Shown here piece by piece: positions 4,372 to 20,079 of a stretch of DNA of 64,000 nt. This stretch comes from Candidatus Poriferihabitaceae bacterium (GTDB lineage Bacteria; Pseudomonadota; Gammaproteobacteria; Arenicellales; Poriferihabitantaceae). The notes under the pieces are model-generated. The model did no database searches. It saw only the letters and a program-made list of their open reading frames with translations, and was not told the origin of the DNA. The number at the start of each line of letters is the position of its first letter. Position 1 is the first letter of the stretch. A program made the translations under genes and the position numbers. The stretch spans positions 570,387 through 634,386 of the forward strand of contig OZ251537.1 of the NCBI GenBank assembly GCA_965243285.1. The letters are read 5' to 3'.

Positions 4372-5454
4372 TTACTTATTAGATTTTCGGCGGTTGCATT
4401 CCTTGCACAGCATTTGGCAATTTTCTTCGCTGGTTTTACCGCCTTCTGACCATGGCGTTACATGGTCGCCTTCCATATTATCTATGACGAACTGTTTTTT
4501 GCATTTTGGGCAATTCCCTTGTTGTTTTTCATACACTTTTTGTTTCATAGAATCGGTAAACGCCCGAAGGGACAGATGTTTTTCATCACGGGTTAAAATA
4601 TACGGATAAATGCCGCTAAGTTTTTTTACATCATCATCGGCGATCAATTTAGCGGTTTCTTTTTCTATCGCCTCTGGATCATGTTTTTTATCATGGCATT
4701 GGCGATATAGCGTTCCCCAATCCACCCCCTTCATGGGCTTTCTATAGGTAGTAAAAATCGCCTCCACCCATTCGATAACATCATTAAAATAGCCCCATAA
4801 TTCCAGGGCATTGTCATCGTGCTGGTGTTCGCCCATATAGGATTCTATTTTCCCATCGGACAGCCATTTGATAGCCGTTTCTAAATATTCTTGGCGAGAT
4901 GCGGCGCCTTTCAAATATTTTCCACCATTATCTTGAGCGGGGCAGTTGCTTTTACTAAAATAGGTTTTCGCATGAGTCACCCAAGAGCCTGAATAAACTG
5001 CATTTCTTAATTCTTGGTTTGTGAGTTCTTCGCCCGCTATATTAATCGTCTTAAACCAATTCAGTTTTTCGCTATCGGTTCCGCTACAAAAATAAACCAT
5101 CAATTTGTAGTTGAGAATTCCGACTTTCTCGTCATTTTGCAGGTTATGAAAACTTCTATCTTCAAAAGAAAATTTACGATTGACATACTGGCAAATCGAA
5201 ATAGTTCGCTGCTGTCCATCAATGATTTCATAATCGCCATCCTCCCGAACCGCCCAATACATAACATTGAGCGGGAAATCATTGATGACGGTGTTTATAA
5301 CAGCGTCTCTTTGTTTGCCGGTATAAATAAATTCGCGTTGATAGGGCGGGCGAATATCTAGCTTGCCACCATACCCGACCACGCCATCATCACCGCTGTC
5401 CTTATATCCGGCAACCAAATCTTTAACCGAAATTGCCTTTAGTTTGATTTTCAT
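4372..5454 (-). CDS. DUF262 (ParB-like/GmrSD N-terminal) + C-terminal HNH nuclease
   Basis: DGQQRTISI motif of DUF262. C-terminal CPKC...GDHVTPWSEGGKTSEENCQMLCKECNRRK is an HNH/zinc-ribbon. Start taken at MKIKLKAISV (5454), which overlaps the upstream MTase stop as ATGA. Confidence 0.8.
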   Translation of the reverse strand: MKIKLKAISVKDLVAGYKDSGDDGVVGYGGKLDIRPPYQREFIYTGKQRDAVINTVINDFPLNVMYWAVREDGDYEIIDGQQRTISICQYVNRKFSFEDRSFHNLQNDEKVGILNYKLMVYFCSGTDSEKLNWFKTINIAGEELTNQELRNAVYSGSWVTHAKTYFSKSNCPAQDNGGKYLKGAASRQEYLETAIKWLSDGKIESYMGEHQHDDNALELWGYFNDVIEWVEAIFTTYRKPMKGVDWGTLYRQCHDKKHDPEAIEKETAKLIADDDVKKLSGIYPYILTRDEKHLSLRAFTDSMKQKVYEKQQGNCPKCKKQFVIDNMEGDHVTPWSEGGKTSEENCQMLCKECNRRKSNK

Positions 5455-5711
5455 AGCATTTTGTTTTTGATGATAATGCGCCTGTATTTTGGCTTGCCAT
5501 TTATATCGGGGCCGCGACCTCGCCATTTAGGATATTCCATCCTATGGTCGTCCATCCCCAAGATATCAAATTGCTCGTGGTTGTATTTATCCATAAAACT
5601 AATGGGCACCCCCATAGCCCCTTTATAGTCCTTAGGGATGTATTCTGTTTTATCGACATTGATAGCGTCGTAGTTGTCATATTTTTGGTATTCCTCTCGA
5701 CTATATTTTCT
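5451..5711 (-). pseudogene. C-terminal fragment of an M.EcoRI-family N6-adenine DNA methyltransferase
   Basis: ...YSREEYQKYDNYDAINVDKTEYIPKDYKGAMGVPISFMDKYNHEQFDILG...KYRRIIIKNKML parallels the M.EcoRI C-terminus (SSYPKYDNYDAINVNKTKDIPLDYNGVMGVPITFLHKFNPEQFELI...YFRILIKNKRLQK). The upstream part is replaced by MITE sequence at 5712. Confidence 0.85.
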
Positions 5712-5912
5712 GGGGGGAGTCAAATCAGGCGGCTTTATCGCCTGATTTGGTGGGGGGCTGTTGATGTTGGTCTTTTTGTTTTTGGCTTTTAAATCTTCAA
5801 CTCATTAGCATTAATGAGGGGCAAGGTAAAAAGCAACAGCCAAGTCAAAAGCGAAAAGCCAAAACCAACCCCAACCCCAAACCCACCGTGCAGATTTAGG
5901 TATATAAATCCC
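5712..5912 (-). mobile_element. MITE half-copy (left arm with left TIR), truncated at an internal hairpin
   Basis: In reverse complement it starts GGGATTTATATACCTAAATCTGCACGGTGGG and ends ...CCTGATTTGACTCCCCCC. The outer flank at 5913-5920 is CTTAATTT when read in element orientation. Confidence 0.85.
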
Positions 5913-5948
5913 AAATTAAGCGTGTTATCCAAAATATTGCTACATTGA

Positions 5949-6215
5949 TTAGGGTTTAGCCATTTCTTTTGTGCCAGTAGGAATGGTGGAATTAAAAGAC
6001 GCAATCATATAACTCATGCTATCTTTTAATTTCACCAACTCGCCGTCGCTGAAAACACCGCCACGATTTATTTTAATGGCTAAATCGGGAAACATGCCCT
6101 TGCTCCTACACGACAGTAAACTGGTTTTATACGGGAATTTTTCAAGATTTTTTAAATCGCCAAAGTGCTTTTTTTGGGCGATTAAATCGGCAAAAAAATG
6201 GTAAATGGAATACAT
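5949..6215 (-). pseudogene. degraded ORF downstream of the PF01555-type MTase (possible cognate endonuclease remnant)
   Basis: About 89-aa ORF starting 12 bp after the MTase stop, AT-rich. It terminates about 35 bp before the MITE. Readable continuations exist only in other frames. The function call is inference from gene position. Confidence 0.3.
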
Positions 6216-6227
6216 GGCAATCAACCC

Positions 6228-7120
6228 TCAAGCGCTAAGAATATCCAGCGGCATGGGCGCGCCCCATATTATTTTTAATCCAGGGGTAAACACATAGTCA
6301 TTATAATAATCGCCAACGCAATCTCCGGCGCAGATATCATGCAGACGCGATTTTATGCACGCTACATTTTTTTTATCCAACTCAATGCCAATGTATTTGC
6401 GCCCGAGTTGTTTGGCTACGGTTAATGTAGTGCCTGTGCCGGCGAATGAATCTAACACTATATTATTATACTTAGATGACGATAAAATAATTCTCAACAG
6501 CAACGCAACTGGCGCCTGTTGTTTGTGAAACCGCGCGCCATCGGTTTGGCGAATGGCCTCTTTGCCGGCGAAAAACCCAGAAGTCAACTCTCTTATATCA
6601 TCCCAAACATCGGTCACGAAAATTCCATTTTCGCGTTTGAATTTATAATTCGCTGGCGGTTCTGGGTTTATTCGCAACCGATTAAAAATATTTGCCTTTG
6701 CGCCCTTGGTTGCATACACGATTACTTGATATTGCTTGCCGAATTTGCACGCCACCGGCACCGCTGAAGTTTTCTTTCGCCAAATAATTAAATTTTGGAA
6801 AGTCCAACCGGTTTCGCGCAATATGGTCATCACAAATTCAGCATTTTTTCGCGCTGCATAAAATAAATCGCGCCACCTGCCGTTGTGCAAGCGTAAATAT
6901 GTTGGCAAACATCCCGCATCATCCGCCCGTATTTTTCATCCTCCATTGCATCGTCATGCTTGGCATATTCCTGGCCTTGATTAAAGGGCGGGTCCATAAA
7001 AGTCAAGCCGATTTGATTGGCCGGCAACTGTTGCAGTCGGTCGCGACAATCGCCCAAATAAATCATGTCGGGGCGGAAGGTATCAAGATTTTTTATATTT
7101 TTCACGGGCCGATTTTTCAT
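6228..7120 (-). pseudogene. DNA methyltransferase (N4/N6, PF01555-like) with a frameshift in a homopolymer
   Basis: N-terminal part MKNRPVKN...LTFMDPPFNQG (motif IV) is in one frame (ends 6830). The rest, ...NAEFVMTILRETGW...LDSFAGTGTTLTVA (motif I), is in another. The frames meet at the T6 run 6844-6849. Confidence 0.75.
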
Positions 7121-7294
7121 GGCGGTTGCTGGAGGTATGTCGGCATGGAAAGCGGCCATACTACCATTAAAACCGCCCGAACGCATAAAACAGACATATA
7201 CAATGTATCCGTAATCATGCATGCGAATGGCGGCCGAATAAACCCGCGCAGCGCATCGATAATGATACCATTGCCGGCGATGGCGACTATAAAA

Positions 7295-8380
7295 ATGATC
7301 CGCGAAACCCGCGAGCTGGCCGAATTCATCGCCGCCGCCACGGCCAGCGGGTGGGCCGCGATGGACACCGAATTTTTGCGCGAGCGCACCTATTCGCCGG
7401 AGTTGTGCCTCATCCAAATCGCCCATGCGGACGCGGCGGCGTGTATCGACCCGCAGGCGGTGGAGGATTTATCGCCGCTCGGCGCGTTGTTGGCCAACCC
7501 CGCCGTGGTCAAAATTTTTCATTCTTGTCGGCAAGATCTCGAGGCCTTGGATACGCGCATGCCGTTGTGCGCCGCGGCGGTGTACGACACCCAGTTGGCG
7601 GCGGCGTTTTGCGGCTACGGCAGCCAAGCGAGCTACGCGGCGCTGGTGGCGGCGGTGTGCGCGGTGCATTTGCCGAAAACCCATACCCGCACCGACTGGA
7701 GTCGCCGCCCGCTATCGGCGGCGCAGTTGCAATACGCTATGGACGATGTCAAATATTTAGCGCCGTTGCGCCGCCACCTCGATGAGCTGCTAGCGCAACA
7801 CGGCCGCCAGCAGTGGCATCGCGATGAATGCGTCGCCGCCGCGCACCCAGCCAACTATCGCCCCGCTGCGGACCCATGGCAACGCTTGAAGGGCCTCGGC
7901 CGCCTCGATACCATGGGCCGCGCTTGCGCCCAGCGGCTAACCGGCTGGCGCGAGCAAAAAGCCCGCGACTGCAACCGACCGCGCGGCTGGATTCTGCCCA
8001 CACCGGCGCTGTTGGCAGTCTGCCGCCAGCGTCCGCGCACCATGGCTATGCTGGCGGAGGTCGACGATCTCAGCCCGGGCATCGTCAAAAACTCGGGGCG
8101 AGACATTTTGAACCTAGTCGAGCGCAGCGCCGCCGATGGTGGCGAAATGCGCGATGATTCCAGCACTCGGCCTGAACCGCTGAGCGCGGAACAACGCCAC
8201 CGCGTGAAAAAAATCATGGACTTGCTGGCGCGCCGGGCGGCGGAGACCGACATCAGCCAAGCGTTATTCGCCAACCGCCGCGAGGTCGAAAACTTCGTGC
8301 GCGGTGATTCCGAGCAGCCATTATTCCACGGCTGGCGCGCCCAACTGGCCGGCGATGAAATTCGCGCCGAGTATTCGTAG
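7295..8380 (+). CDS. rnd: ribonuclease D
   Basis: MIRETRELAEFI...AMDTEFLRERTYSPELCLIQIA (ExoI), HSCRQDLEAL and YAMDDVKYL are DEDDy motifs. Start chosen by alignment logic with E. coli Rnd; the longer ORF upstream overlaps the opposite-strand MTase. Confidence 0.85.
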   Translation: MIRETRELAEFIAAATASGWAAMDTEFLRERTYSPELCLIQIAHADAAACIDPQAVEDLSPLGALLANPAVVKIFHSCRQDLEALDTRMPLCAAAVYDTQLAAAFCGYGSQASYAALVAAVCAVHLPKTHTRTDWSRRPLSAAQLQYAMDDVKYLAPLRRHLDELLAQHGRQQWHRDECVAAAHPANYRPAADPWQRLKGLGRLDTMGRACAQRLTGWREQKARDCNRPRGWILPTPALLAVCRQRPRTMAMLAEVDDLSPGIVKNSGRDILNLVERSAADGGEMRDDSSTRPEPLSAEQRHRVKKIMDLLARRAAETDISQALFANRREVENFVRGDSEQPLFHGWRAQLAGDEIRAEYS

Positions 8381-8640
8381 GCCGGTCGATTATCCACACT
8401 AAGCGGCGGCGTTTTGTCAGTGGCGCCCTCCTTAGCTGGTGAAAATCCACCATCCAATCGGCCACTGAACCCTCGCCGCCCGATACAGCCGCCATCGGCG
8501 TCGATACCTCGTTATCGCATTGATTGAAACCGCGTTGTTTACTAAAATCGGCGGCTTATCGACGCTTAGCCATCGGCGGTTAGCGCATCGGCGCTGGCCA
8601 AAAAATCCCATTCGGTTGGTCTTATGTTTGTTTCAATTTA

Positions 8641-9198
8641 ATGTCAGCGCCCAGCGTCATCATCCTATCCGCGCCTTCCGGAGCCGGCAAAACCAGCCTA
8701 ACGCGAAAATTGGTCGCGCGACGGCCGGATGCGGCGGTGGTGGTTTCCCACACTACCCGCCCGCGGCGCGTTGCCGAAAAAGACGGCGTGGATTATTGCT
8801 TTGTCGACAAAGCGCGCTTCGAAGCGATGATCGCCGAGCGCAGTTTCATCGAATACGCCACCGTGTTCGGTCACTATTACGGCACTTCAGCGCAGGCGAT
8901 AGATGCGCTGATTTCCCGCGGCAAGCATGCTATTTTGGATATCGACTGGCAGGGCGCGCGCGCCGTGCGTCGCCAATATCCCCATGCCCAATCGGTGTTT
9001 GTCATGCCGCCTTCTCTTGGGGTGTTGGAACAACGCCTAAAATCCCGCCGCCAAGACGCCGACGAGGTCATCGCCGGACGCATGCGCGCCGCGCTGGACG
9101 AGATGAACCACCGCAACGAGTATGATCATGTCATCATCAATGATCGATTCGAGCGCGCCCTGGAAAATCTTGAAGCCATCCTGCCGGCGAATGGATGA
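8641..9198 (+). CDS. gmk: guanylate kinase
   Basis: P-loop [11 protein letters not shown], plus HTTRPRR and [12 protein letters not shown] motifs. Confidence 0.9.
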
Positions 9199-9283
9199 TG
9201 GTGCCGATTTATCGATAATGTTTAGCGATAATATTTATCGATGTTTTTTAATGTTTGATAATTTCAATTCCAGGAGAATCAAC

Positions 9284-9745
9284 ATGGCTCGCGTAACCGT
9301 GACTGACTGCTTAGCGCATGTCGACAATCGCTTTCAACTGGTGTTAGTCGCCTCCAAACGGGCGCGGCAACTGATCCTCGGCGCCGAGCCGCTGGTCGAG
9401 AGCAACCGCGATAAACCCACAGTGCTGGCATTGCGTGAAATCGCCGCCGGCCTGGTCGGGCCCTCCATCCTCGATGAGAAACCCATCGTCCCCGAATTGA
9501 GTTTCGACAACGACGAGGAATGGAATGAAAAACTGAATGATGAATTGATCAGTAAATTGAGCGACGAGCTGGAGAATCAACTGGACGACGAGCCGAACGC
9601 CGACGCCGATGCCGACGCCGATGCCGACGCCGATGCCGATGCCGACGCGGAAAGCCACCCGCCGCGCGGCGCATCGCTTGCGGACGATGCCGACCCATCC
9701 ACCGAAACCGCGGCCGCGGGCGAGCCGCCGTTAAGCCGCCGATGA
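9284..9745 (+). CDS. rpoZ: RNA polymerase omega subunit with long acidic C-terminal extension
   Basis: [30 protein letters not shown] is canonical RpoZ. GGAG-containing RBS upstream. gmk-rpoZ-spoT synteny. Confidence 0.9.
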
Positions 9746-9836
9746 AAACATAGCCGGCGCACGCGTCGCCCAAACCCTTGGGCGGCGCGCCCGACGGTTG
9801 GTCGTAGCGGCCGCGGTGGCGGCGCCGCGGGTGCCC

Positions 9837-12062
9837 ATGCAAAAAATCGCCATGCGCGGAATCGCCAGCAGAATCCCCTACCTCAGCCCCAGCCGCCCGG
9901 CGCTTGGCCGCTCTCCCCCTAGCCGAAATCGCATCGGCAAACCGCTGAGCGAACAAGCCGCCATCGACGATCTCATCGGCGAACTGGCGACCTACCTAGA
10001 CGCCGACGCCATCGCCAACATTCGCGAGGCGTGCCAATTCGGCATCGCCGCCCACGCCGGGCAAGTGCGCGAAAGCGGCGAAGCCTACATCCACCACCCG
10101 CTGGAGGTGGCGCGCATTCTCGGGCAAATGCGCGCCGACGGGCGCACCATCATCGCCGCCATTTTGCACGATGTGGTCGAAGACACCGCCATCACCCTGG
10201 CGCAACTGATGGCGCGCTTCGGCGATGATGTCGGCATGTTGGTGGACGGCGTCAGCAAGGTGGACGAGTTGGAACAGGAATCCAAAGCGCATGCCGAGGC
10301 GGCCTCCTTTCGCAAAATGTTCACCGCCATGTCCACCGATTATCGGGTGATTTTCATCAAATTATCCGACCGCCTGCATAACATGCGCACCCTAGGCTCG
10401 CTGCGAGAGGAGAAAAAACACCGCGTCGCCCGCCAAACCTTGGAGATTTACGCGCCCATCGCCGACCGCCTCGGCATGCGCGAATTGGCGCTGGAGTTGG
10501 CTGATTTAAGTCTGTTTAACTTAGACCCAAAACGCTATCGGGCCATCGCCAAAACCCTCAGCGCCAACTCGCGGCGGCGCCAATCCACCCTCGACGAATT
10601 GTGCGTCCACCTGAAACATGCTTTAAGCAAAGCCGGCCTCGAGGCGCGGGTGCATGGCCGCGAAAAAGAGATTTACAGCATTCATCGCAAGATGCGCCAA
10701 CAACACCTAGCGCTCAAAGATCTCCAGGACATCAACGCCATTCGCGTGGTCACCGAAAATCGCCTGCAGTGTTACCAAGCGCTCGGCATCATCCATCAGC
10801 TCTACAAACCGCGCCCGAGCAAATTCAAAGACTATATCGCCATCCCCAAAGCGAACGGTTATCAGTCGTTACATACCGTGGTCATCGATTCCATCGGGCG
10901 GCCGGTGGAGGTGCAAATCCGCAGCGACATGATGGATAAGGTGGCGAAAAACGGCCTCGCCTCGCACATCATGTATGAGATGGCGGCCACCGGCGAACAC
11001 GCCCCGGAGAAGTTAATGCGCACCGCCATCGATAACATTCTCGAATCGGCGCGCAAATCCCAAGACTTCGAGGAGTATTTCGAGAACTTGAAGGCCGAAC
11101 TGTCGCCGGACGCGGCCTATGTTTTCACTCCCAAAGGCGACATCAAGCGCCTGCCATGGGGCGCCACGGTGCTGGATTTCGCCTATGCGGTGCACACCGA
11201 CATCGGCCAGCGCTGCGTGTCGGCGCGCATCGGCCAACACATCGCCGCCGTGCACCAGGTATTAAAAGGCGGCGAGACCATCGAGATAATCACCTCGCGC
11301 ACCCGCCAGCCGCAAAAAAAATGGCTGAAATACGCGGTCACCTCCAAAGCGCGTTCGTCGATTCGCCATTTTCTCAATCAACAAAACGACAAAGAGGCCT
11401 TCACCCTCGGCCGCAAATTGCTAAAACAAGCGCTGCACGCCCAAGGCTACCGCCGCATGCGCATTCCCAGCGCGCATAAATTGGCGCTGCTGAAACATTT
11501 GCGGGTGGATGATTGGCGACCGTTGGTGCGCGACATCGGCTATGGCAAACGCGTGCCGGGGTTGGTGGCCAAGCAACTCATCGCCGAAAATCGCAGCGCC
11601 ACCGAGGCCGTGCCAACGCCGCCGGCGGCCATGATTATCGAAGGCACCGAGCGCCTGATGGTGACTTTCGCGCATTGCTGCCACCCGATTCCCGGCGACA
11701 AAATCACCGGCATCATGTTAAGCGGCCGCGGCCTCACCGTGCATCGCGCGCAATGCGTAAACCGCAAGGAAATCACCCCCCACATGGAAAATTATCATGA
11801 TTTAGCGTGGGCTGAAAACGCCAAAGGAAAATTCCAAGTGATGTTGCAAGCCGACCTCCACAACCGCCCCGGCGCCATCGCATCCATCAGCAGCGTCATC
11901 GCCCAACACAACTCCAACATTTACAACATCCAACTAGGCGAACCGCACCACGACATCATCAGCGTGCGCCTCGCCATCGAAGTGATCCACCGCCCGCACC
12001 TCGCCGCCATCATGCGTCAACTGCGGCATGAAGATTCCGTCATCAAACTGGCGCGTCCATGA
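9837..12062 (+). CDS. spoT: bifunctional (p)ppGpp synthetase/hydrolase
   Basis: HD hydrolase (HHPLEVARIL...HDVVEDT), synthetase (YIAIPKANGYQSLHT), TGS and ACT regions are collinear with E. coli SpoT. Start codon uncertain (ATG at 9837 or 9852; the ORF opens at 9798). Confidence 0.9.
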   Translation: MQKIAMRGIASRIPYLSPSRPALGRSPPSRNRIGKPLSEQAAIDDLIGELATYLDADAIANIREACQFGIAAHAGQVRESGEAYIHHPLEVARILGQMRADGRTIIAAILHDVVEDTAITLAQLMARFGDDVGMLVDGVSKVDELEQESKAHAEAASFRKMFTAMSTDYRVIFIKLSDRLHNMRTLGSLREEKKHRVARQTLEIYAPIADRLGMRELALELADLSLFNLDPKRYRAIAKTLSANSRRRQSTLDELCVHLKHALSKAGLEARVHGREKEIYSIHRKMRQQHLALKDLQDINAIRVVTENRLQCYQALGIIHQLYKPRPSKFKDYIAIPKANGYQSLHTVVIDSIGRPVEVQIRSDMMDKVAKNGLASHIMYEMAATGEHAPEKLMRTAIDNILESARKSQDFEEYFENLKAELSPDAAYVFTPKGDIKRLPWGATVLDFAYAVHTDIGQRCVSARIGQHIAAVHQVLKGGETIEIITSRTRQPQKKWLKYAVTSKARSSIRHFLNQQNDKEAFTLGRKLLKQALHAQGYRRMRIPSAHKLALLKHLRVDDWRPLVRDIGYGKRVPGLVAKQLIAENRSATEAVPTPPAAMIIEGTERLMVTFAHCCHPIPGDKITGIMLSGRGLTVHRAQCVNRKEITPHMENYHDLAWAENAKGKFQVMLQADLHNRPGAIASISSVIAQHNSNIYNIQLGEPHHDIISVRLAIEVIHRPHLAAIMRQLRHEDSVIKLARP

Positions 12063-12088
12063 CGGAAATTATCAATAGGCTAATTAAT

Positions 12089-12831
12089 GGGATTTATATA
12101 TCTAAATCCGCACGGTGGGTTTGCTTTTGATTTTGGCTTTTGCTTTTGCTTTTGCTTTTGGCTTTTGGCTGTTGATCTTCACTCCCCCCGCTTCATCATG
12201 AGGGGGAGTCAAAACTGGCATCTTTTTCGCCAGTTTTGGTGGGGGGTTTTGATCTGGCTTTCGCTTTTGATGTTGATTTTCGCTTTTCGCTTTTGATTTT
12301 GGCTTTTGCTTTTTTGTTTTTGCCTTTAAATCTTCAACTCATTAGACCAAATGAGGGCAAGTAAAAATCAAAAGCGAAGTCAAAAGCGAAGTCAAAAGCG
12401 AAAAGCAACAGTCCCCCCACCAAATCAGGCGATAAGGCCGCCTGATTTGACTCCCCCCAGATGAAGCACGGGGGGGAGTAAAGCGTTAAAAGCCAAAGCC
12501 AAAAGCAAAAGCCAAAGCAAAAGCCAAAGCCAAAAGCAAAAGCAAAAGCCAAAGCAAAAGCAAAATCAAAAGCTAACATCAAAAGCCAAATCAAAAGCTA
12601 ACATCAAAAGCTAACATCAAAAGCACCCCCCACCAAAACTGGCGATGTAGCCGCCAGTTTTGGCTCCCCCCTAAAAAGATAGGGTGGAGCGAAGCCTTAA
12701 CAGCAACAGCAAAAGCAAAAATCAAAATCAAACGCCAAAATCAAAAGCAAAAATCAAACGCAGCCGCCCTAAATCAGTCGCTGACCTCAAAAAAACGCCA
12801 ATCGAACTGCAGATTTAGGTATATAAACCCC
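12089..12831 (+). mobile_element. full-length MITE-like element (743 bp)
   Basis: Left TIR GGGATTTATATATCTAAATCCGCACGGTGGG. Right end ...CCCTAAATCAGTCGCTGACCTCAAAAAAACGCCAATCGAACTGCAGATTTAGGTATATAAACCCC. T-rich GCTTTT arm, central TTAAATCTTCAACTCATTAG module and A-rich AAAAGC arm. No ORF of coding quality. Confidence 0.85.
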
Positions 12832-13109
12832 AAAACAAAAGCCAAAGCCAAAGCCAAAAAGCAAAAGCCAAGTCAAAATCAAAAGGCCCCCCACCAAAAC
12901 TGGCGAAAAAGCCGCCAGTTTTGACTCCCCCCAGATGAAGCACGGGGGGGAGTAAAGCGTTAAAAACCAAAGCCAAAGCCAAAGCCAAAGCCAAAACCAA
13001 AACCAAAGCCAAAACCCAAAGCAAAAATCAAAGCCAAAGCAAAAATCCAAAAAACAAAATCGCCCCCCCAATAGCAACCTACCAATGGGGATTTAGGTAT
13101 ATAACTCCC
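12832..13109 (+). repeat. MITE-related fragment with variant right end, abutting the previous element
   Basis: AAAAGC-type arm plus a hairpin module, ending ...TAGCAACCTACCAATGGGGATTTAGGTATATAACTCCC. No left TIR. Confidence 0.7.
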
Positions 13110-13139
13110 TAAATTTTCATGGCGGTCTTGCATGAATAA

Positions 13140-13634
13140 ATGAATCCGCATCGCATCGACATCCACCTCCCCAGCCAGCGTTTGGAGTTGCGTGCGGTCG
13201 CGCAGCCGGACATACCGTTGCGGGTGTACGCCATCTCCAGCGCCGCCAATGGCTGCGGCGAGATCATGCACAGCGAGCGCACGCCGCGTGGCCGCCACCT
13301 CATTCGCGCCAAAATTGGCGCCGGCGCGCCCTTGGGCAGCGTGTTCGTCGGGCGGCGGCGCAGCGGTGAAATATTCAGCGCGCAAGCCCGCGCCGCGGCC
13401 CCAAACCGTGATTGGATATTGACGCGCATCCTGTGGCTGAGCGGCTGCCAGCCGGGCTTCAATCGCTTAGGCGCGGTGGACACCATGCGCCGCTACATCT
13501 ACCTACACGGCGCCGCGGACGATGTGGAAATGGGGCAAGCCGGCTCGCGTGGCTGCATTCGTATGCGCAATGATGAGATCGCCGAGTTGTTCGATTTAGT
13601 CGACATCGGCACGCCGGTACATATCCATGGTTGA
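13140..13634 (+). CDS. L,D-transpeptidase (YkuD) domain protein
   Basis: C-terminal LHGAAD...GQAGSRGCIRMRNDEIAELF is the YkuD catalytic H...GC(I/V)R motif. Confidence 0.75.
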   Translation: MNPHRIDIHLPSQRLELRAVAQPDIPLRVYAISSAANGCGEIMHSERTPRGRHLIRAKIGAGAPLGSVFVGRRRSGEIFSAQARAAAPNRDWILTRILWLSGCQPGFNRLGAVDTMRRYIYLHGAADDVEMGQAGSRGCIRMRNDEIAELFDLVDIGTPVHIHG

Positions 13635-14727
13635 AATGGCCAGCGCCACTTCCCCTACCGCCGCAACCGTATCGAAGCCGAGCCAACTCCCTCTCGGCCC
13701 GCTGATGGTGGATGTGCGCGGCGCCGAGTTGCGCGCCGAGGAGGCGGATTTTTTGCGCCATCCGGCGGTGGGCGCGGTCATTTTGTTCGCCCGCAACTGC
13801 CATGAGCCGGCGCAGGTGGCAGCCCTGACGCGCGCCATCCATGCCTTGCGCGCGCCGCCGTTGTGGGTGGCGGTGGACCAAGAGGGCGGGCGCGTGCAGC
13901 GCTTGACTAACGGGTTTTATGCCTTGCCGGCCGCGGCCCGCCTCGGCGCGCTATACGACCGCGACCGCGAAATGGGGGTGGCGATGGCGAGTGCCGCCGG
14001 CTGCCTGATGGCGGCGCAAGTGCGCCAAGTGGGGGTGGATTTCAGTTTCGCGCCGGTGTTGGATTGCCAGCGCCCGGGCAGCCAAGTATTGGGCGACCGC
14101 GCCTTTCACGCCCAACCGTCGAGCATCTGCGCCATCGCCGGGGCCTACATCGCCGGCATGCGCCGCGCCGGCATGGCCGCCACCGCCAAACACTTCCCCG
14201 GCCACGGCGGCGTCGAGGCCGACTCTCACACCGAACTGCCGGTGGATTCGCGTCCCTTATCGGCCCTGAAAAAACGCGATTTATGGCCTTTTGCGCAGTT
14301 GGCCGACCAACTCGGCGGCGTGATGACCGCGCATGTGTTGTTTGGCAAAATCCATGCCGATTTACCCACCTACTCGCCCTTTTGGCTGCGCGACATTTTA
14401 CGCACCCGACTCGGCTTCGCCGGCGTCATTTTTAGCGATGACTTGAGCATGAAAGGCGCCGCCGGCCATCTTGCCAACCCGGCCAGCAACCTCGCCGCCG
14501 ACGATGGCAACCTTGGCATCCGCGCCCAACGCGCCTTAGCCGCCGGCTGCGATATGGCGTTGATTTGCAACGCCCCAGAAGCCGCGCGTCGCGCCGCCGA
14601 CCACTTAGGCCAGCAACATCGCCCCGACTCATCCCGCTTAGCCGCCATGCAAGCCCGCGCCGCCGACATACCCACCGCCGAATTAGCCAAAATGGCGACA
14701 GATTTAGACCGCGAATTGCCCGCCTAA
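13627..14727 (+). CDS. nagZ: beta-N-acetylhexosaminidase (GH3)
   Basis: LMVDVRG..L..EEADFLRHP, VDQEGGRVQRL and KHFPGHGGVEADSH motifs of NagZ. Confidence 0.85.
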   Translation: MVEMASATSPTAATVSKPSQLPLGPLMVDVRGAELRAEEADFLRHPAVGAVILFARNCHEPAQVAALTRAIHALRAPPLWVAVDQEGGRVQRLTNGFYALPAAARLGALYDRDREMGVAMASAAGCLMAAQVRQVGVDFSFAPVLDCQRPGSQVLGDRAFHAQPSSICAIAGAYIAGMRRAGMAATAKHFPGHGGVEADSHTELPVDSRPLSALKKRDLWPFAQLADQLGGVMTAHVLFGKIHADLPTYSPFWLRDILRTRLGFAGVIFSDDLSMKGAAGHLANPASNLAADDGNLGIRAQRALAAGCDMALICNAPEAARRAADHLGQQHRPDSSRLAAMQARAADIPTAELAKMATDLDRELPA

Positions 14728-14739
14728 ACCATCCCAAAC

Positions 14740-14850
14740 TCGCTAAACCGACATTTCAGCCAAATTTCAGCCAAATTCGATCAAATTCGACCAAATTTAA
14801 GCGAAATTTACCGAATTTCACCTAAATTCACCGATTTTCCGTCAACTCCA
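14740..14850. repeat. phased A/T-tract array (10-11 bp period)
   Basis: CAGCCAAATTT CAGCCAAATTC GATCAAATTC GACCAAATTTA AGCGAAATTTA CCGAATTTCA CCTAAATTCA CCGATTTT, lying between convergent nagZ and the RND gene. Confidence 0.8.
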
Positions 14851-14867
14851 TCGCCATCCCCGCCACC

Positions 14868-17800
14868 TCACCCCCTTCTCCCCCGCCAAGCCGTACGAAT
14901 GCCCGCGTCGGCATTCTCATACACCAACAACAGCGACGGAATCACAATCAACACCAGCAGCGTGGCGAAGGCCAAGCCGAAGGCGATGGTGGTGGCCATG
15001 GGGATGAGAAATTGCGCCTGCAGCGAGGTTTCGAACAACAGCGGCGACAAGCCGGCGATGGTGGTGAGCGAGGTGAGCAGCACCGCCCGCAGGCGGCGGC
15101 AGGCGGCTTCGATGACGGCTTCGCGCGCCGCCCATCCGCGCCCGCGCAGGCGCTTGTAGAACACCACCAGGATGATGGAATCATTGACCACGATGCCCGA
15201 GAGCGCGAAAAAGCCGAACAGCGACAGCACCGTGACCTCCTGCCCCATCAGCACATGCCCCCACACCGCGCCGACCAAGCCGAACGGGATGACGGCCATC
15301 ACCACCACCGGTAAGCCGTACGAGCCGAACACCCACGCTAATACCAAGTAAATCAGCGCCAACGCCAGCAGCAGCCCGGTCTGCATATCGCCCAAGGTTT
15401 CGGTTTGCTCGGCGGCGCGGCCGCCGAATGAAAATTCCACGCCGTAGCGGTCAGCCAGTTGCGGCAAGATATCGGCCTCGAGGGCGGCGCGGATGCGGCC
15501 GGCGGTAGCGATGGTGTGGTCCACGCTGGCGGTGACGGTGATGCTGAGTTTGCCGTCCACATGCAGAATCGACTCGAAACCGCGCTCGGCGCTTAGGTCG
15601 ACTAAATTGCCTAACGGCGCGGCGTTGCCACCGGGCAGCACGATGGGAACTTGCGCCAAGCCACCCAGGGTGTCGCGCTCGGCCGGCGGCAGCGACACCC
15701 GCACCGTGATATCGCGATAGCCGTCCGACAATTCCAGTGCCTCGTAGCCGGTGTAGGCGGCGCGCAACTGGCGCGACACCTCGTCCACGCTCAGGCCCAG
15801 CGATTCGGCGGTGGGGGTGAGGCGCAGCAGCCATTGTTCGCGGCCATAGGGTGAATCATCGCCGATGCCGTTGACCCCGGGGATGGCCGCCAGCGCCGCC
15901 TGCAGTTGTAGCGCGGCCTTTTTTACCCGGGCGAGGTCGGGGCCGGAGATTTCGAGGTCGATATCCCGCCCCGGCGGGCCGGCTTGGGGTTCTAAGATAG
16001 CCAGGCTCTCGAGGCCCGGCCGCGGCGGCAGTTTGCTTTGCCAGGCGGCAATTAAATCTCGATTGCGGGTGTTTCGTTGGTCGGAATCCACCAACTCGAC
16101 GCGCACCCGGCCGGTGTGTTCGCCGTGGTGATGCAGCAATATCATGGCGATGAATGGTTCGCCGGATTCGGCCTCGATTTCGCCCATGGCGGCGGCCGCT
16201 TGCGCCAAATAATCGGTCACCGTGTCCGGCGGCGTGCCGGCCGCAAAACCGACTTGCGCGTATACCTGATTGCCCTCGCCCAACGGAAAAAAATGGAAGC
16301 CGATGCGCCCGGCTTGCATCCAGCCGAAGGTGAGGATGAGCGCCGCCGCCGCCGCCGCCAAAGTACTCCAGCGATGCCGCACCGCCAGGGTCAGCAGCGG
16401 GCGAAACCACGCCTCGCGAAATTGCGCGAAGGCGGCATCCAAAGCGCGTCGGGCGCGTTTTGGGCGATATTCGCCCAGGCTGCGAAAGGAATGCGTCAGA
16501 TGCCCCGGCAAAATCAAAAAACACTCGACCAGCGAAGCCACAATGATGCAAATCACCACCGTTGGAATCGCCCGCATGATGGTGCCGATGATGCCGCCCA
16601 CCAGCAGCAGCGGCATGAAGGCGGCGATGGTGGTCAGCGACGATGCGCACACCAGTCCGAGCATGCGGCGCGCCGCTTTCTCCGAGGCCGCGCTGGGCGC
16701 GGCGCCGCGTTCGTATTGCGACATGGCTTCCTCGCCCACCACGATGGCGTCGTCTACGATGATGCCGAGCGCCATAATCATGCCGAACAGGCTGATCATG
16801 TTGAGCGAGCCGCCGACCAAATACAGCGCCGCCATGGCGCCCATAAAGGACACCGGAATGCCCACCGCGGTCCACCACGCCACCCGCCCGTTCATAAATA
16901 AAAACAGGATCAACACCACCAACAATAGGCCGCCGAGGCCGTTTTTCAGCAATAGGTCGATGCGCTCGCGCAGCAATTCCCAGCTTTGGTTGTACGGCAA
17001 CAGCGCCACGCCCGGCGGCAAAGTCGGGCGCGTCTCGCGCAGCCAGTCGCTGAAAATAGTGGCGGCCTCGAGGCTGTCGCCGCCGGCGGCGCGGCGCAAC
17101 GACATACGCACTGCCGGGCCGCCGTTATGGGTGATGGTGGGCTGGCCGGTGGCCGCTTTGCGCTCGATGTGGGCGATGGAACCTAAGCTCAGCAGCCGCC
17201 CACCGGAGGCCGCCACCGGCACCGATTCGAACGCCAGCGCGGTTTGCCGGCGCTCGCGAAAACGCAGCTGCCGCGACACTTCGGCCTGCCCGACCACGCC
17301 CACCGGCGCGTCCTTCGACCACGCCGCCACCCGCCGCCCGATAGCGTCCAGCGACAGCCCCAGCCGGCGCAGCTGGTGGGATGGGATTTCGATGGCGATT
17401 TCCTCCTTCGGCAGCCCGGTGATTTGAATCGAGGCGATGCCGCGCGCCAGCAATTCGCGCTCAAAGCGCCGCACTAACGGGCGCAAATCATCGATATCGG
17501 CCGGCCCGGCGACCAGCAAACTGGCGATCTCCTCGTAATTTTGCAGCTGAGCGACGCGCGGCCGTTCGCTGCCCTCGGGCAAACCGCTGGCGGCATCCAC
17601 CTGCGCCTTGACGCGCGCCACCGCCAGTTCGATGTCGGCATCTTCGGCAAATTCTAAGGTGATGCGCGAATTCGCCTCGCTGGAGGTCGAGGTGATGCGT
17701 TTGACCGCATCGATGGCGCGCAAATCTTGCTCCAGCGGGGTGGTGATCAGGGCCTCGATATCGCCGGCGCTGGCGCCGCGCCACAGCGTGGTAACCGACA

Positions 17801-17980
17801 CCCTATCGACGCTAAAACTGGGGAAAAACTGGGTGTTGAGTTGCTTTACGCCCCAAACCCGGCCAGCAGCAACATCGCCATCAATAAATTCGCCGCCACC
17901 GGATGGTTGCAGAAAATGCCGAGCAAGCCGCCTCGGCTGGTGGCGCCGGCCTGGTCTTCGGTCTGGCGTGGCTCGCTCAT
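14868..17980 (-). pseudogene. RND (AcrB/HAE1-like) efflux transporter, N-terminal TM1 in a different frame (frameshift or sequencing error)
   Basis: The 1048-aa ORF has RND 12-TM architecture, but its first ~55 aa are Arg-rich nonsense. The true N-terminus MSEPRQTEDQAGATSRGGLLGIFCNHPVAANLLMAMLLLAGFGA is read from ATG 17980 and hits TAA at 17846-17848. The frames meet at the G-run near 17850-17860. Confidence 0.8.
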
Positions 17981-18213
17981 GGCGTCGTCCGTGGCGCGTC
18001 CATGTCCATGGCATCGCGCGGCGGCGTCATACGACGGTCATCACAACCGAAGCGGTGATGATTAATTAAGGTGCCGATGGTCGACATGTAATAGGTTTAA
18101 TCGAGGTACTGCCGTGGCCGGCAAAACGCCATCGCACGCCCTAAAAGTTGGGCCGGGAATGCCGCGCAAATTGCCGCTCATGCTCATGCGCATGCTGCTC
18201 GCCGACCTCCACA

Positions 18214-19515
18214 TTACCGCGCCACCCGCACTTTCAAGCCGTCCACGGCTTGCGGCAGGCGCGAGTTCAGCACTTGGTCGCCGGCCGCAAAAGCTGCGGC
18301 GGCGATGATCAATTTAGGCGGCCCGGCGCCGTCATGCACCAGCCCCAAGCGGCGCACCTCGATGGCTTGCAAAACGCCATCGCGCACCCGAAAAACTCGG
18401 TCGTTGCCGTATAGCGAATCGGTCGGCAACAGCACCACATTGTCGACCGGCGGCAATTCCAGATGCATCTCCAGCGCCTCGCCCAGCGCCGGCAGCGGCC
18501 CTTGGGCGACGCGGAAAAACCCATCGATGCCGCTTTGCCCGGCCACCACATTGGCCGCCAAACGGTGCAGCGTCAGGGTGATAGCGGCGCCGTTGGCATC
18601 GGCGGCGGCGGTCACCGCCTGGCGCGCATCGACCGCCTGGCGCAAGGCCGGCAGATGCGCGGCCGGCACTTGGGCCCGCACTTCGAGCTGGGAATCATCG
18701 TACATGCGCAGCAGCGGGCTGTTGGGCGCGACGCGATCGCCCTCGGATACCAGCACCTCGAGCACGCGCCCGGTGAATGGCGCCAACACGCGGCTTCGCG
18801 CTTGGGCGCGCTCGGCTTGTTTGAGGGCCGCGGCGGCGCGCTGGCGACGCGCTTGCAATTGGCGGCGGCGGGCGCCGGCCTCGTCGATGGCCAAGCGGCG
18901 TTTGGCTAAATCCAACAGGCGGCGTTGTTCCACCTCGCGGGTTTGGTCTAACGCGGCCTCGCTGCCGGCTTGGGTGCGCGCCAGTTGCTCGGCGCGCTGC
19001 ACGGCGCGGCGCGCCAGGGCGAGCAGGGCTTGCTCCGCCTGCAGCGCGGTTTGGTCGGCTTGTAGTCGAATGTGGTCGCTGTCGATGCGCGCCGCCGCTT
19101 CGGCCAGCTCGCTGCGGCGCTGCAAGACCACCAGCGCCGCATCGGCGTCGTCCAACACCATCATCTCTTGCCCGCGTTGCACGGCGGCGCCTTCGAGGGC
19201 TTTGATGGCGACGACATCGGCCTCGATGCCAGCCGTCAGCACGCTGGTGCGCGGCGATTCCACCTGCCCAAAAACCCGCAGCATGGGCGAGGCGGTGGTC
19301 GGCGACACCACCTGCACCGATACCACCGGCGCCCGGTCTGCGCTCGGCGGCGCCGGCGGCGGCTCGCCGGTGGCCGAAAATAGCGCCACCGCCACCGCGG
19401 CCAGCAACAGAATCAACAGCGGCACGCCGATTTTTCGCAACCACTTTTTGGCGTCGAGCTTGGTTAATCGACTGGTGTTGCGCCAGGATGATTCGGGCAT
19501 GGGTTTTGGCGGCAA
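18214..19515 (-). CDS. efflux membrane-fusion (HlyD/periplasmic adaptor) protein
   Basis: N-terminal TM anchor, long Ala/Arg/Gln coiled coil, then ...VLAPFTGRVLEVLVSEGDRV. Lies directly upstream of the RND pump. Confidence 0.8.
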   Translation of the reverse strand: MPPKPMPESSWRNTSRLTKLDAKKWLRKIGVPLLILLLAAVAVALFSATGEPPPAPPSADRAPVVSVQVVSPTTASPMLRVFGQVESPRTSVLTAGIEADVVAIKALEGAAVQRGQEMMVLDDADAALVVLQRRSELAEAAARIDSDHIRLQADQTALQAEQALLALARRAVQRAEQLARTQAGSEAALDQTREVEQRRLLDLAKRRLAIDEAGARRRQLQARRQRAAAALKQAERAQARSRVLAPFTGRVLEVLVSEGDRVAPNSPLLRMYDDSQLEVRAQVPAAHLPALRQAVDARQAVTAAADANGAAITLTLHRLAANVVAGQSGIDGFFRVAQGPLPALGEALEMHLELPPVDNVVLLPTDSLYGNDRVFRVRDGVLQAIEVRRLGLVHDGAGPPKLIIAAAAFAAGDQVLNSRLPQAVDGLKVRVAR

Positions 19516-19543
19516 TATCCGCGGTGTTTTCTAGCAAAAGTTA

Positions 19544-19590
19544 GGGCGTTATATACCTAAATCCGCACGCGCGGTTTGCTTTATCCGCAT
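19544..19590 (+). repeat. solo MITE left-end remnant
   Basis: GGGCGTTATATACCTAAATCCGCACGCGCGGTTTGCTTT resembles the left TIR plus the start of an arm. No partner end. Confidence 0.55.
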
Positions 19591-19768
19591 CGACTGCCCG
19601 GTCCGCATCACTAAAAATAAAACTTAAAAGATTAACTAAACCACCATGGCAACCCGACGGAAAACACCACCCCATTTAAGCGGATTTAAGCCAGCAACTC
19701 CCCTGAATTAAAGCATGCCAAATTTTTAACCACGCCATTGTTGCATCGACTTATATAACGCAAAAGAA

Positions 19769-19843
19769 TGGATTTATATATCTAAATCAGCCGCTGACCT
19801 CAAAAAAACGCCCATCGAACTGCAGATTTAGGACTATAAATCC
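19769..19843 (+). mobile_element. 75-bp minimal MITE derivative
   Basis: TGGATTTATATATCTAAATC joined directly to AGCCGCTGACCTCAAAAAAACGCCCATCGAACTGCAGATTTAGGACTATAAATCC. Flanked by identical GCAAAAGAA at 19760-19768 and 19844-19852. Confidence 0.8.
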
Positions 19844-20079
19844 GCAAAAGAACATGGTTTTAATCGACCGTGGCGATGCGGTTTTAAGCGGCGCTGCTGG
19901 GCGGTGATGGTTACGCCGGATGAAACGATGCCGATTTTTCGCTTGCCGGCTAGTGCCATGGCGGCCCAATCACATCGACCATCGCCATCATCGCCATTCA
20001 CCAACCCGGCATTTCCTGCGCCATTCGAAGCAGCGGCGGCATTATACAATACGCCGAGCCGCCGCTTAAATATCAGCCC

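What the first reader, a model, noticed from the sequence alone, without database searches (positions are those of the whole stretch)
4372..7120. Two back-to-back decayed R-M operons; an intact DUF262-HNH nuclease is translationally coupled (ATGA) to a dead M.EcoRI-like methyltransferase
The minus-strand order is: PF01555 MTase (frameshift at the T6 run 6844-6849), a degraded ~89-aa ORF, a MITE half, the M.EcoRI-like C-terminal fragment, then DUF262-HNH. The MTase fragment stop and the nuclease start overlap as ATGA (5451-5454), so the two were once one operon. A DUF262 + HNH protein paired with an EcoRI-family m6A MTase is not a textbook R-M architecture, because DUF262 proteins are usually seen as GmrSD-like, modification-dependent enzymes. 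The nuclease ORF looks intact while its partner MTase carries a nonsense codon, a frameshift and a physical split. That is tolerable only if the nuclease is modification-dependent, silenced (the inversion removed its promoter-proximal half-operon), or inactive.
Basis: partly seen in the sequence, partly recalled or inferred. Interest (0 to 1): 0.6.

Follow-up and report, generated by a model that had tools for sequence, protein, structure and literature searches.

The report
Dead restriction-modification pair split by inversion
This is the wreck of two ordinary bacterial DNA-defence modules that a 17.8-kb inversion pushed together; one nuclease gene is still readable although its protective methylase is destroyed, most likely because it is no longer expressed.

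Summary
Every sequence claim checks out. An intact 360-aa DUF262+HNH nuclease gene (4372-5454, minus strand) overlaps by ATGA the last 86 codons of an EcoRI-family methylase. The methylase's first 242 codons lie 17 kb away (22753-23483, plus strand) and carry a TAA codon and a 1-nt deletion. Inverting about 5710-23484 restores three things: a 328-aa methylase, a complete MITE with the family's 8-bp target duplication, and the reading frame of a second, PD-(D/E)XK restriction gene that the MITE had interrupted. The two operons are therefore neighbours only because of the inversion.

The methylase-nuclease pair is a widespread conserved module. The methylase lies directly upstream in 77 of 80 species genomes, with a 4-nt overlap in 37. 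The pair also occurs on plasmids and in a phage. PADLOC files the nuclease as a Type II restriction enzyme (E 9e-133). A modification-dependent nuclease is therefore unlikely.

The intact orphan is not a strong paradox. It is cut off from its likely promoter and from translational coupling. Chance alone gives p about 0.12. Five other genomes also have a broken methylase with an intact nuclease.

This is an ordinary decayed copy. I found no biochemical study of the family.

The parts
4372..5454 (-). Intact 360-aa nuclease ORF (called N here): ParB-like DUF262 domain, a helical middle region, and a C-terminal HNH domain with CxxC...CxxC
   Evidence: Pfam GmrSD_N E 4e-18 and HNH E 2e-17. PADLOC REase_II PDLC03418 matches the full length, E 9e-133. 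N differs from the consensus at only 2 of 139 columns that are at least 95% conserved; the family median is 1.5.
5451..5454 (-). ATGA overlap of the methylase stop codon and the nuclease start codon
   Evidence: Read from the sequence. The same 4-nt overlap occurs in 37 of 77 homologous loci.
5451..5711 (-). C-terminal fragment (codons about 243-328) of the EcoRI-family m6A methylase M1. The breakpoint lies in the A-run 5706-5711
   Evidence: PF13651 profile positions 248-345 of 345; tblastn; reconstruction.
5712..5912 (-). Left half of a MITE: terminal inverted repeat GGGATTTATATACCTAAATC at 5912-5893, down to the C6-hairpin-C6 centre at 5757-5712
   Evidence: Repeat families. Joined to the other half, it aligns without a break to the intact copy at 62450-62750. 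The hairpin folds at -11.9 kcal/mol, z -6.7.
5913..5920 (-). One copy of the 8-bp target-site duplication CTTAATTT
   Evidence: Other complete copies of this MITE carry duplications of 7 or 8 bp, mostly 8.
5913..6215 (-). N-terminal remnant of the second restriction gene R2 (PD-(D/E)XK type). The ORF 5949-6215 is followed by an out-of-frame piece encoding ILDNTLN. The catalytic motif ELIELK of the homologues reads ELVKLK here, and about 130 codons are deleted
   Evidence: Homologues always lie directly downstream of a PF01555 methylase; tblastn.
6228..7120 (-). PF01555 (N6/N4) methylase M2, with a -1 frameshift in the A6 run 6844-6849. The start is at 7066 or 7120
   Evidence: Pfam E 2e-31 for the part after the shift and 0.002 (below Pfam's cut-off) for the part before it. 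53-67% identical to the intact homologue L088 in two frames.
5710..23484 (.). Inverted segment of about 17.8 kb. It carries rnd, gmk, rpoZ, spoT, a MITE cluster, a 5'-nucleotidase gene and other genes
   Evidence: Inverting it restores M1, the MITE and R2 together.
22665..22693 (+). Promoter-like site (CCGACA, 17-nt spacer, TATAAT) 60 nt upstream of the M1 start. It is the likely operon promoter and is now separated from N
   Evidence: Consensus scan, 10 of 12 positions. This is a consensus match only.
22753..23484 (+). N-terminal fragment (codons 1-242) of methylase M1, with TAA at 22831-22833 (codon 27, GAA in relatives) and a 1-nt deletion in the C-run 22896-22899
   Evidence: tblastn in two frames. 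After repair the protein is 328 aa, covers PF13651 positions 1-345 of 345 with E 9e-135, and is 51% identical to genuine M.EcoRI.
23484..23617 (+). Right half of the same MITE, ending in the terminal inverted repeat
23618..23777 (+). Second copy of the target duplication (23618-25) and the C-terminal remnant of R2 (...KIKHHFNGWFCVFQVGL*)
   Evidence: tblastn against residues 106-159 of the C-terminal ORF of split R2 in L088, E 3e-6. Removing the MITE and one duplication copy gives ILDNTLNFIVPLH; the homologue reads ILDNTLNFVLPYH.

Best explanation
The locus holds the remains of two horizontally acquired restriction-modification (R-M) modules.

Module 1 was a two-gene operon. An EcoRI-family N6-adenine methylase (M1) came first. 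A DUF262-HNH nuclease (N) followed, overlapping it by ATGA. In intact copies the methylase most likely marks host DNA, and the nuclease, made only when the methylase gene is translated, most likely cuts unmarked DNA.

Module 2 was a PF01555 methylase (M2) followed by a PD-(D/E)XK restriction enzyme (R2). It sat about 17 kb away in the opposite orientation. R2 was killed first, by a MITE insertion with the 8-bp duplication CTTAATTT.

Later, an illegitimate recombination joined a run of A in M1 codon about 242 to the A-rich spacer next to the MITE's central hairpin. This inverted about 17.8 kb. It separated N and the last 86 codons of M1 from the promoter and the first 242 codons.

Shown here: the anatomy, the reciprocal reconstruction, and the conservation of the pair.

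Inferred: the nuclease is blocked by methylation; it is now untranscribed or untranslated because it lost both its promoter and its translational coupling; and its ORF survives because the event is recent.
For: Pair conservation:
- The methylase lies directly upstream on the same strand in 77 of 80 species-representative genomes from many phyla, including CPR bacteria and an archaeon. There is a 4-nt overlap in 37 and a spacing of 20 nt or less in 33 more.
- The same pair is found in relatives only about 40-47% identical: on Enterococcus faecium and Lactiplantibacillus pentosus plasmids and in Flavobacterium phage laban6-1, where the overlap is again 4 nt.
- One fused methylase-DUF262-HNH protein of 688 aa exists.
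- PADLOC models labelled Type II restriction enzyme and Type II methylase match over the full length.

Inversion:
- The two M1 fragments join into a 328-aa protein that covers the whole PF13651 profile.
- The two MITE halves align as one unbroken stretch to an intact copy and carry the family's 8-bp duplication.
- The R2 remnants on the outer sides of the two halves continue one another.

Silencing:
- The only good promoter-like site lies upstream of the M1 start at 22665-22693.
- No promoter-like site lies on the minus strand between the N start and 6349.
- There is no Shine-Dalgarno-like sequence upstream of N.

Recency:
- GC3 is 0.38-0.51 in the module against 0.67-0.78 in host genes.
- M1 is no more diverged from its relatives than intact methylases are from each other (59.5% against a mean of 59.3%).

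Recurrence:
- A broken methylase with an intact nuclease ORF occurs in L006, L008 (a transposase gene is inserted in the methylase), L009, L065 and L068. A solitary nuclease occurs in L018 and L057.
Against: I found no biochemical study of this nuclease family. 'Blocked by methylation' rests on gene context only.

Read-through from the M2 promoter is possible, because M2, the R2 remnant, the MITE half, the M1 tail and N all lie on the minus strand, and no convincing terminator lies between them.

Promoter scans were no richer than shuffled sequence.

Shine-Dalgarno absence is weak evidence, since only 26 of 80 homologues have such a sequence.

No related genome or metagenome contig with either the un-inverted or the inverted junction was found, so the inversion rests on this one assembly.
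Confidence: 0.7

Rival explanations
1. N is a modification-dependent (Type IV, GmrSD-like) nuclease. It never needed the methylase for self-protection, so losing the methylase is harmless.
For: The N-terminal domain is DUF262/GmrSD_N. All characterised DUF262 nucleases (GmrSD, BrxU, SspE) sense modified DNA (reviews PMC12707154 and PMC12065111). Genomes with a broken methylase and an intact nuclease ORF (5) are at least as frequent as those with a nonsense codon in the nuclease and an intact methylase (3).
Against: There is near-obligate same-operon linkage and translational overlap with an m6A methylase in 77 of 80 genomes, and across relatives down to about 40% identity. A fused methylase-nuclease protein exists. 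A nuclease that attacked its partner's own mark would kill the cell. The nuclease domain is PF01844 HNH, not DUF1524. PADLOC's Type IV model scores only E 0.002 on the HNH part, against E 9e-133 for the Type II model.
Confidence: 0.07
2. N is still expressed and active. The host is protected by another methylase of the same specificity elsewhere in the genome, or N has been kept as a solitary defence nuclease.
For: The ORF is intact and shows no excess of changes at conserved positions. Solitary copies exist in L018 and L057. The genome is rich in R-M genes, with at least three further methylase domains in this window.
Against: No second PF13651 methylase is present in the 64-kb window. N has lost its operon promoter. 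N is slightly more diverged from the family than average (67.2% against 71.1%, sd 2.6), which does not suggest special preservation. The rest of the genome could not be examined.
Confidence: 0.12
3. N is translated but was disabled by a missense change before or after the methylase died.
For: D161H is a private, non-conservative change at a position that is Asp in all 77 other members of the 78-sequence clade alignment (Asp in 27 and Glu in 1 of another 28-member sample). N's mean identity to the family is about 1.5 sd below average.
Against: The same column is Leu, Lys, Ala or Met in the 387-aa sister clade, so it is not a catalytic residue. The DGQQR motif and the HNH residues D330, H331, N345 and N354 and the cysteines are all present. 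23 of 78 family members carry a private change at an otherwise invariant column.
Confidence: 0.12
4. The split methylase is an assembly artefact caused by the many MITE copies.
For: The window holds at least 18 matches to the MITE terminal repeat and 15 hairpin modules. No independent contig confirms either junction.
Against: One breakpoint lies in unique coding sequence (M1), not in a repeat. Both reciprocal junctions are present. The two MITE halves lie in direct orientation, so a repeat-driven mis-join would not produce this pattern. The M1 5' fragment also carries independent lesions, as expected of a real pseudogene.
Confidence: 0.03

Closest known systems
EcoRI restriction-modification system (M.EcoRI, PF13651)
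   Same: The repaired M1 is 51% identical to genuine M.EcoRI over its full length, and the Kangiella partner is 49.6% identical. M.EcoRI was identified in an E. coli plasmid next to the annotated R.EcoRI gene. M1 has the NPPF motif and covers the whole profile. REBASE predicted GAATTC for the Kangiella homologue M.Kaq16071ORFDP (Blow et al. 2016, PMC4752239, Table S3).
   Different: The gene order is methylase then nuclease, not nuclease then methylase. The nuclease is unrelated to R.EcoRI, which is a PD-(D/E)XK enzyme. The recognition site is unproven: the Kangiella methylome records the methylase only as 'possibly active' and leaves the m6A motifs AGTACT (56% methylated) and CYGATG unassigned.
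GmrSD / BrxU / SspE (DUF262 + DUF1524 nucleases: GmrSD and BrxU are Type IV; SspE senses phosphorothioate)
   Same: An N-terminal ParB-like DUF262 domain with the DGQQR motif. An all-helical middle region of about eight predicted helices, which resembles the 'ParBDB' domain described in PMC12065111. A C-terminal His-Me-finger nuclease. BrxU (PDB 7p9k) gives a weak hit, E 0.28.
   Different: The nuclease domain is a zinc-binding PF01844 HNH, not DUF1524. The protein is 360 aa, against about 590 for BrxU. It is encoded with a cognate methylase, which implies the opposite logic: modification protects rather than triggers.
HNH-type Type II restriction enzymes (KpnI, Hpy99I, PacI, NlaIII and others)
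   Same: An HNH catalytic module paired with a methylase. PADLOC's Type II restriction-enzyme model matches N over the full length.
   Different: To my knowledge, none of the HNH restriction enzymes listed in PMC2441816 has a DUF262 NTPase-like domain. In this family the nuclease is more conserved than the methylase: 71% against 59% mean pairwise identity, and higher in 96% of pairs. To my knowledge that is the reverse of the usual pattern.
Menshen NsnA and PD-T4-2 (other DUF262 defence proteins)
   Same: The DUF262 domain matches the PADLOC models NsnA (E 5e-26) and PD-T4-2_A (E 9e-13).
   Different: The similarity is limited to that domain. There are no NsnB or NsnC partners, and here the nuclease domain is in the same polypeptide.

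Membership tests
Type II-like R-M module: EcoRI-family methylase + DUF262-HNH nuclease (PADLOC PDLC03297 / PDLC03418) | Full-length profile match of the nuclease | tested here: met
   PDLC03418 REase_II: residues 1-360 against profile 1-372 of 372, E 9e-133.
Type II-like R-M module: EcoRI-family methylase + DUF262-HNH nuclease (PADLOC PDLC03297 / PDLC03418) | Cognate methylase gene directly upstream in the same operon | tested here: met
   Met as a relic: the last 86 codons overlap N by ATGA, and the rest lies at 22753-23484. It is intact in 77 of 80 homologous loci. The methylase is not functional in this window.
Type II-like R-M module: EcoRI-family methylase + DUF262-HNH nuclease (PADLOC PDLC03297 / PDLC03418) | Site-specific cleavage of unmethylated DNA that is blocked by the partner's methylation | not testable with these tools
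   No biochemical report was found in five literature searches.
GmrSD family (Type IV) | N-terminal DUF262 (ParB/Srx-like) domain | tested here: met
   PF03235, E 4e-18, with IDGQQR present.
GmrSD family (Type IV) | C-terminal DUF1524 nuclease domain | tested here: not met
   No PF07510 hit. The C-terminus is PF01844 HNH, E 2e-17.
GmrSD family (Type IV) | Stand-alone gene without a cognate methylase | tested here: not met
   A methylase lies upstream in 77 of 80 loci.
GmrSD family (Type IV) | Cleavage depends on DNA modification | not testable with these tools
   This needs an enzyme assay.
EcoRI-family N6-adenine methylase (PF13651) | Whole-profile match with the NPPF catalytic motif | tested here: met
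   Met only after joining the two fragments and repairing two lesions: profile 1-345 of 345, E 9e-135. As it stands, the gene is a three-fold pseudogene.
MITE (non-autonomous transposable element) | Terminal inverted repeats, a target-site duplication, multiple copies and no coding capacity | tested here: met
   18 matches to the terminal repeat against 0.01 expected. Target duplications of 7-8 bp (mostly 8) at four complete copies and at the reconstructed copy. The reconstructed copy is 85% identical to the intact copy at 62450-62750.
PF01555 methylase + PD-(D/E)XK restriction enzyme module (M2/R2) | Methylase profile match, with the restriction gene directly downstream | tested here: met
   M2 matches PF01555 in two frames. 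Homologues of R2 always follow such a methylase. Both genes are broken here.

The most novel reading that the evidence does not exclude
The DUF262-HNH proteins may be a very widespread nuclease family with GmrSD architecture that works the opposite way from every characterised DUF262 nuclease. They would attack unmodified DNA and be held off by an EcoRI-family m6A mark. Their activity would be conditional, either gated by NTP through the ParB-like domain or dependent on translational coupling, so that losing the methylase is not lethal. On this reading the orphan in this window could still be a working, conditionally active nuclease rather than a relic.
Probability: 0.15. Interest if true: 0.6.

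Novelty: new member of a known kind. Interest (0 to 1): 0.3.

Why it matters
For this genome the finding matters little. It is a tidy, fully reconstructable example of how mobile DNA and an illegitimate inversion dismantle R-M modules. It also shows that an 'intact' restriction gene next to a dead methylase need not be a paradox.

The wider value is a pointer. The EcoRI-family methylase plus DUF262-HNH pair is one of the more common R-M-like modules in public data. There are 490 clusters at 50% identity with E of 1e-30 or better. The pair was found in 380 species genomes, 96 plasmids and a few phages. I found no biochemical study of it. The nuclease is more conserved than the methylase, and it contains a domain otherwise known only from modification-sensing enzymes. 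Characterising one intact pair, for example that of Kangiella aquimarina DSM 16071, would settle what a DUF262 domain does in a modification-blocked enzyme.

Tried and rejected
- Structure: the AlphaFold2 model of N built on 32 homologues was too poor to use (mean pLDDT 49.5). No fold search was run.
- Solved structures: sequence and profile searches found only generic HNH domains and a non-significant BrxU hit.
- D161H as an inactivating mutation: rejected, because that column varies freely in the sister clade.
- Promoter and terminator scans of 4200-7400: no more sites than in shuffled sequence.
- Metagenome scans for the ancestral and the present M1 junction: 0 hits each.
- Source organism: look-ups of three window proteins found no record, so the organism was not identified.
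- Rfam scan of 3500-25000: nothing. No tRNA gene in the window.
- Literature: five searches for a characterised DUF262-HNH restriction enzyme found none.
- Recognition site: counts of GAATTC (18 observed, 24.6 expected) and AGTACT (1 observed, 1.1 expected) in the window are uninformative.
- Programmed (phase-variable) inversion: rejected. The recombining sites share only an A-run, and no inverted repeats flank the segment.
Full report
**What is in the region**

The minus strand of 4372-7120 carries five features in order:
- A PF01555 methylase (M2, 6228 to about 7066 or 7120). It is readable only in two frames, which meet at the A6 run 6844-6849.
- An 88-aa ORF (5949-6215).
- 201 nt of repeat DNA (5712-5912).
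- A 90-codon ORF (5451-5723). It matches only positions 248-345 of the 345-position EcoRI_methylase profile PF13651.
- An unbroken 360-codon ORF (called N here, 4372-5454) with GmrSD_N/DUF262 and HNH domains.

The stop codon of the methylase fragment and the start codon of N overlap as ATGA at 5451-5454. The stretch has 41-44% GC in a genome of about 60% GC. GC3 is 0.38-0.51, against 0.67-0.78 in neighbouring housekeeping genes.

**The missing part of the methylase**

An intact homologue of the pair was found in Kangiella aquimarina: methylase 4952-6004 and nuclease 6001-7086 of locus L001. A tblastn search of the window with that methylase places its residues 2-242 at 22750-23483 on the plus strand and residues 236-350 at 5726-5454 on the minus strand.

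The 5' fragment starts at ATG 22753. It has TAA at 22831-22833 where relatives have GAA. It has lost one C from the run 22896-22899. Joining the two fragments at their shared A-run and repairing these two lesions gives a 328-aa protein. That protein covers the whole PF13651 profile with E 9e-135. It is 57% identical to the Kangiella methylase and 51% identical to genuine M.EcoRI. M.EcoRI was taken from an E. coli plasmid, where it lies next to the annotated EcoRI restriction gene.

**The inversion**

The repeat DNA next to each methylase fragment is half of one MITE.
- The reverse complement of 5712-5916 joined to 23484-23624 aligns as one unbroken stretch across the junction with an intact copy at 62450-62750. 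The alignment is 302 nt long at 85% identity.
- Each methylase fragment abuts the centre of the element, beside an 11-bp hairpin (-11.9 kcal/mol, z -6.7). The terminal inverted repeats point outwards.
- Outside those repeats lies the same 8 bp, CTTAATTT, at 5913-5920 (minus strand) and at 23618-23625. Of four other complete copies in the window, three carry 8-bp duplications and one a 7-bp duplication.

The DNA beyond the duplication belongs to one gene.
- The 88-aa ORF has homologues that always sit directly downstream of a PF01555 methylase.
- The rest of such a homologue (L088) matches the window at 23643-23774, with E 3e-6.
- Its sequence ILDNTLNF|VLPYH is split exactly by the MITE. Removing the MITE and one duplication copy gives ILDNTLNFIVPLH.

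Inverting about 5710-23484 therefore restores three separate things at once: M1, the MITE, and the frame of the second restriction gene R2. I take that as strong evidence for a real inversion of 17.8 kb. One breakpoint lies in the A-run of M1 codon about 242. The other lies in the A-rich spacer at the MITE centre. The crossover shares only a few A residues, so this was illegitimate recombination and not a programmed switch.

Before the inversion the two modules were about 17 kb apart and pointed in opposite directions. R2 was already dead. It had the MITE insertion, about 130 codons are missing, and the PD...ExK motif ELIELK of the homologues reads ELVKLK here.

**Is the methylase-nuclease pair real elsewhere?**

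A scan of one genome per species found 380 relatives of N, and the best 80 loci were fetched.
- In 77 of the 80 loci an EcoRI-family methylase gene lies directly upstream on the same strand.
- In 37 of these the overlap is 4 nt (36 ATGA, 1 GTGA). In 1 it is 1 nt. In 32 the gap is 0-20 nt. In 7 the gap is larger.
- The hosts span Bacteroidota, Planctomycetota, Chloroflexota, Acidobacteriota, Pseudomonadota, Spirochaetota, CPR bacteria and a Nitrosopumilus archaeon.
- The pair also occurs on plasmids. 96 plasmid records carry N, and those inspected carry the methylase as well.
- It occurs in Flavobacterium phage laban6-1, again with a 4-nt overlap, although that N is only 40% identical to the window's.
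- One 688-aa protein fuses the methylase, DUF262 and HNH domains.
- PADLOC's 'Type II restriction enzyme' model PDLC03418 matches N end to end (E 9e-133). Its 'Type II methyltransferase' model PDLC03297 matches the Kangiella methylase (E 8e-125).

**What kind of enzyme is N?**

The architecture resembles GmrSD. It has a ParB-like DUF262 domain with the DGQQR motif, then a helical middle region, then a His-Me-finger nuclease. The nuclease domain, however, is a zinc-binding PF01844 HNH and not DUF1524.

All characterised DUF262 nucleases sense modified DNA. Here the near-obligate operon link to a methylase makes a modification-blocked enzyme far more likely. This is an inference. I found no biochemical study.

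The one methylome available for a genome with an intact pair is that of Kangiella aquimarina DSM 16071 (Blow et al. 2016, PMC4752239). It lists the methylase as M.Kaq16071ORFDP, predicted to recognise GAATTC and scored 'possibly active', with no cognate restriction enzyme named. It leaves the m6A motifs AGTACT (56% methylated) and CYGATG unassigned. The recognition site is therefore open.

**Why is an intact nuclease tolerated next to a dead methylase?**

Four observations lower the paradox.

1. N has lost its likely promoter. The best promoter-like site is CCGACA, 17 nt, TATAAT at 22665-22693, 60 nt upstream of the M1 start. No promoter-like site lies on the minus strand between the N start and 6349. 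N has no Shine-Dalgarno-like sequence. Its translation probably depended on ribosomes finishing the methylase. These are consensus-level arguments, and read-through from M2 cannot be excluded.

2. Chance. If the two point lesions fell at random over the 2071 nt of dead operon, both would land in the 730-nt 5' fragment with p about 0.12. The module is un-ameliorated, which suggests recent acquisition. M1 is no more diverged from its relatives than intact methylases are from each other (59.5% against 59.3%). N is, if anything, slightly more diverged than average (67.2% against 71.1%, sd 2.6).

3. The state recurs in other genomes.
   - The methylase is broken and the N ORF is intact in L006, L008, L009, L065 and L068. 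In L008 a 451-aa transposase gene is inserted at methylase codon 162.
   - N is solitary in L018 and L057.
   - The reverse state, a nonsense codon in N with an intact methylase, occurs in L036, L073 and L078.
   - Some of the frameshifts in metagenome-assembled genomes may be assembly errors.

4. N shows no clear disabling change. It differs from the consensus at 2 of 139 strongly conserved columns, against a family median of 1.5. Its one private, non-conservative change, D161H, lies in a column that is Leu, Lys, Ala or Met in the 387-aa sister clade.

**An unusual feature of the family**

Among 52 intact pairs the nuclease is more conserved than the methylase. Mean pairwise identity is 71% against 59%. 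The nuclease is the more conserved partner in 96% of comparisons. The two sets of distances correlate only weakly (r 0.33). The closest relative of the window's N among 5.8 billion proteins is only 73% identical, and the next 119 hits all lie at 68-73%.

**Verdict**

This locus is a decayed copy of a common, computationally catalogued R-M module. The family itself would repay a biochemical study.

Noticed in passing
window 2538-4314 (+): A two-gene defence pair lies next to N: an AAA_21/ABC-type ATPase (380 aa) and a DUF4276-like protein (199 aa). They match PADLOC HEC-01A (E 3e-119) and HEC-01B (E 4e-44). Together with the R-M relics they form a small defence island.
   Followed up: partly
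window 38332-39758 (+): A third R-M module in another low-GC patch: a PF01555 methylase (305 aa) overlapping a MvaI/BcnI-family restriction gene. That gene is only 174 aa and covers profile positions 1-136 of 227, so it may be truncated.
   Followed up: partly
window 45587-50023 (-): An unbroken 1478-aa ORF with Mrr-like nuclease, helicase (ResIII / Helicase_C) and N6 methylase / Eco57I domains. This is the architecture of a Type ISP single-polypeptide R-M enzyme.
   Followed up: no
whole window: GATC is about five times rarer than expected: 63 sites against about 305 from a maximal-order Markov model. GAATTC, AATT and AGTACT are near expectation. This suggests a past or present restriction activity against GATC in this lineage.
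   Followed up: no
window 12087-13110, 19545-19843, 24366-24540, 25540-25810, 57829-58043, 61516-61722, 62457-62940: An abundant family of modular MITEs. It has terminal repeats GGGATTTATATAYCTAAATC (18 hits against 0.01 expected), a C6-hairpin-C6 module (15 hits), arrays of AAAAGC-like hexamers and target duplications of 7-8 bp. Copies are nested or tandem at 12-13 kb. No transposase that could move them was seen in the window.
   Followed up: partly
loci L005-L084 (52 intact pairs): In this R-M family the nuclease is more conserved than the methylase (71% against 59% mean pairwise identity, r 0.33). Identities of the nuclease plateau at about 65-73% across phyla and domains. To my knowledge this is the reverse of what is usual for Type II systems.
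   Followed up: partly
protein P0269 (688 aa, from the representative library): A single polypeptide carrying the EcoRI_methylase, DUF262 and HNH domains. It is either a natural fusion of the two genes or read-through at the ATGA overlap.
   Followed up: partly
L008 3412-7086: In an uncultured Saccharicrinis genome the methylase of the same module is interrupted at codon 162 by a 451-aa transposase gene, while the nuclease ORF downstream stays intact. This is an independent parallel to the window.
   Followed up: yes
L041 3545-5990: A Leptonemataceae genome carries two tandem EcoRI-family methylase genes (55% and 67% identical to the query) upstream of one nuclease gene, with a 95-residue nuclease fragment between them.
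   Followed up: no
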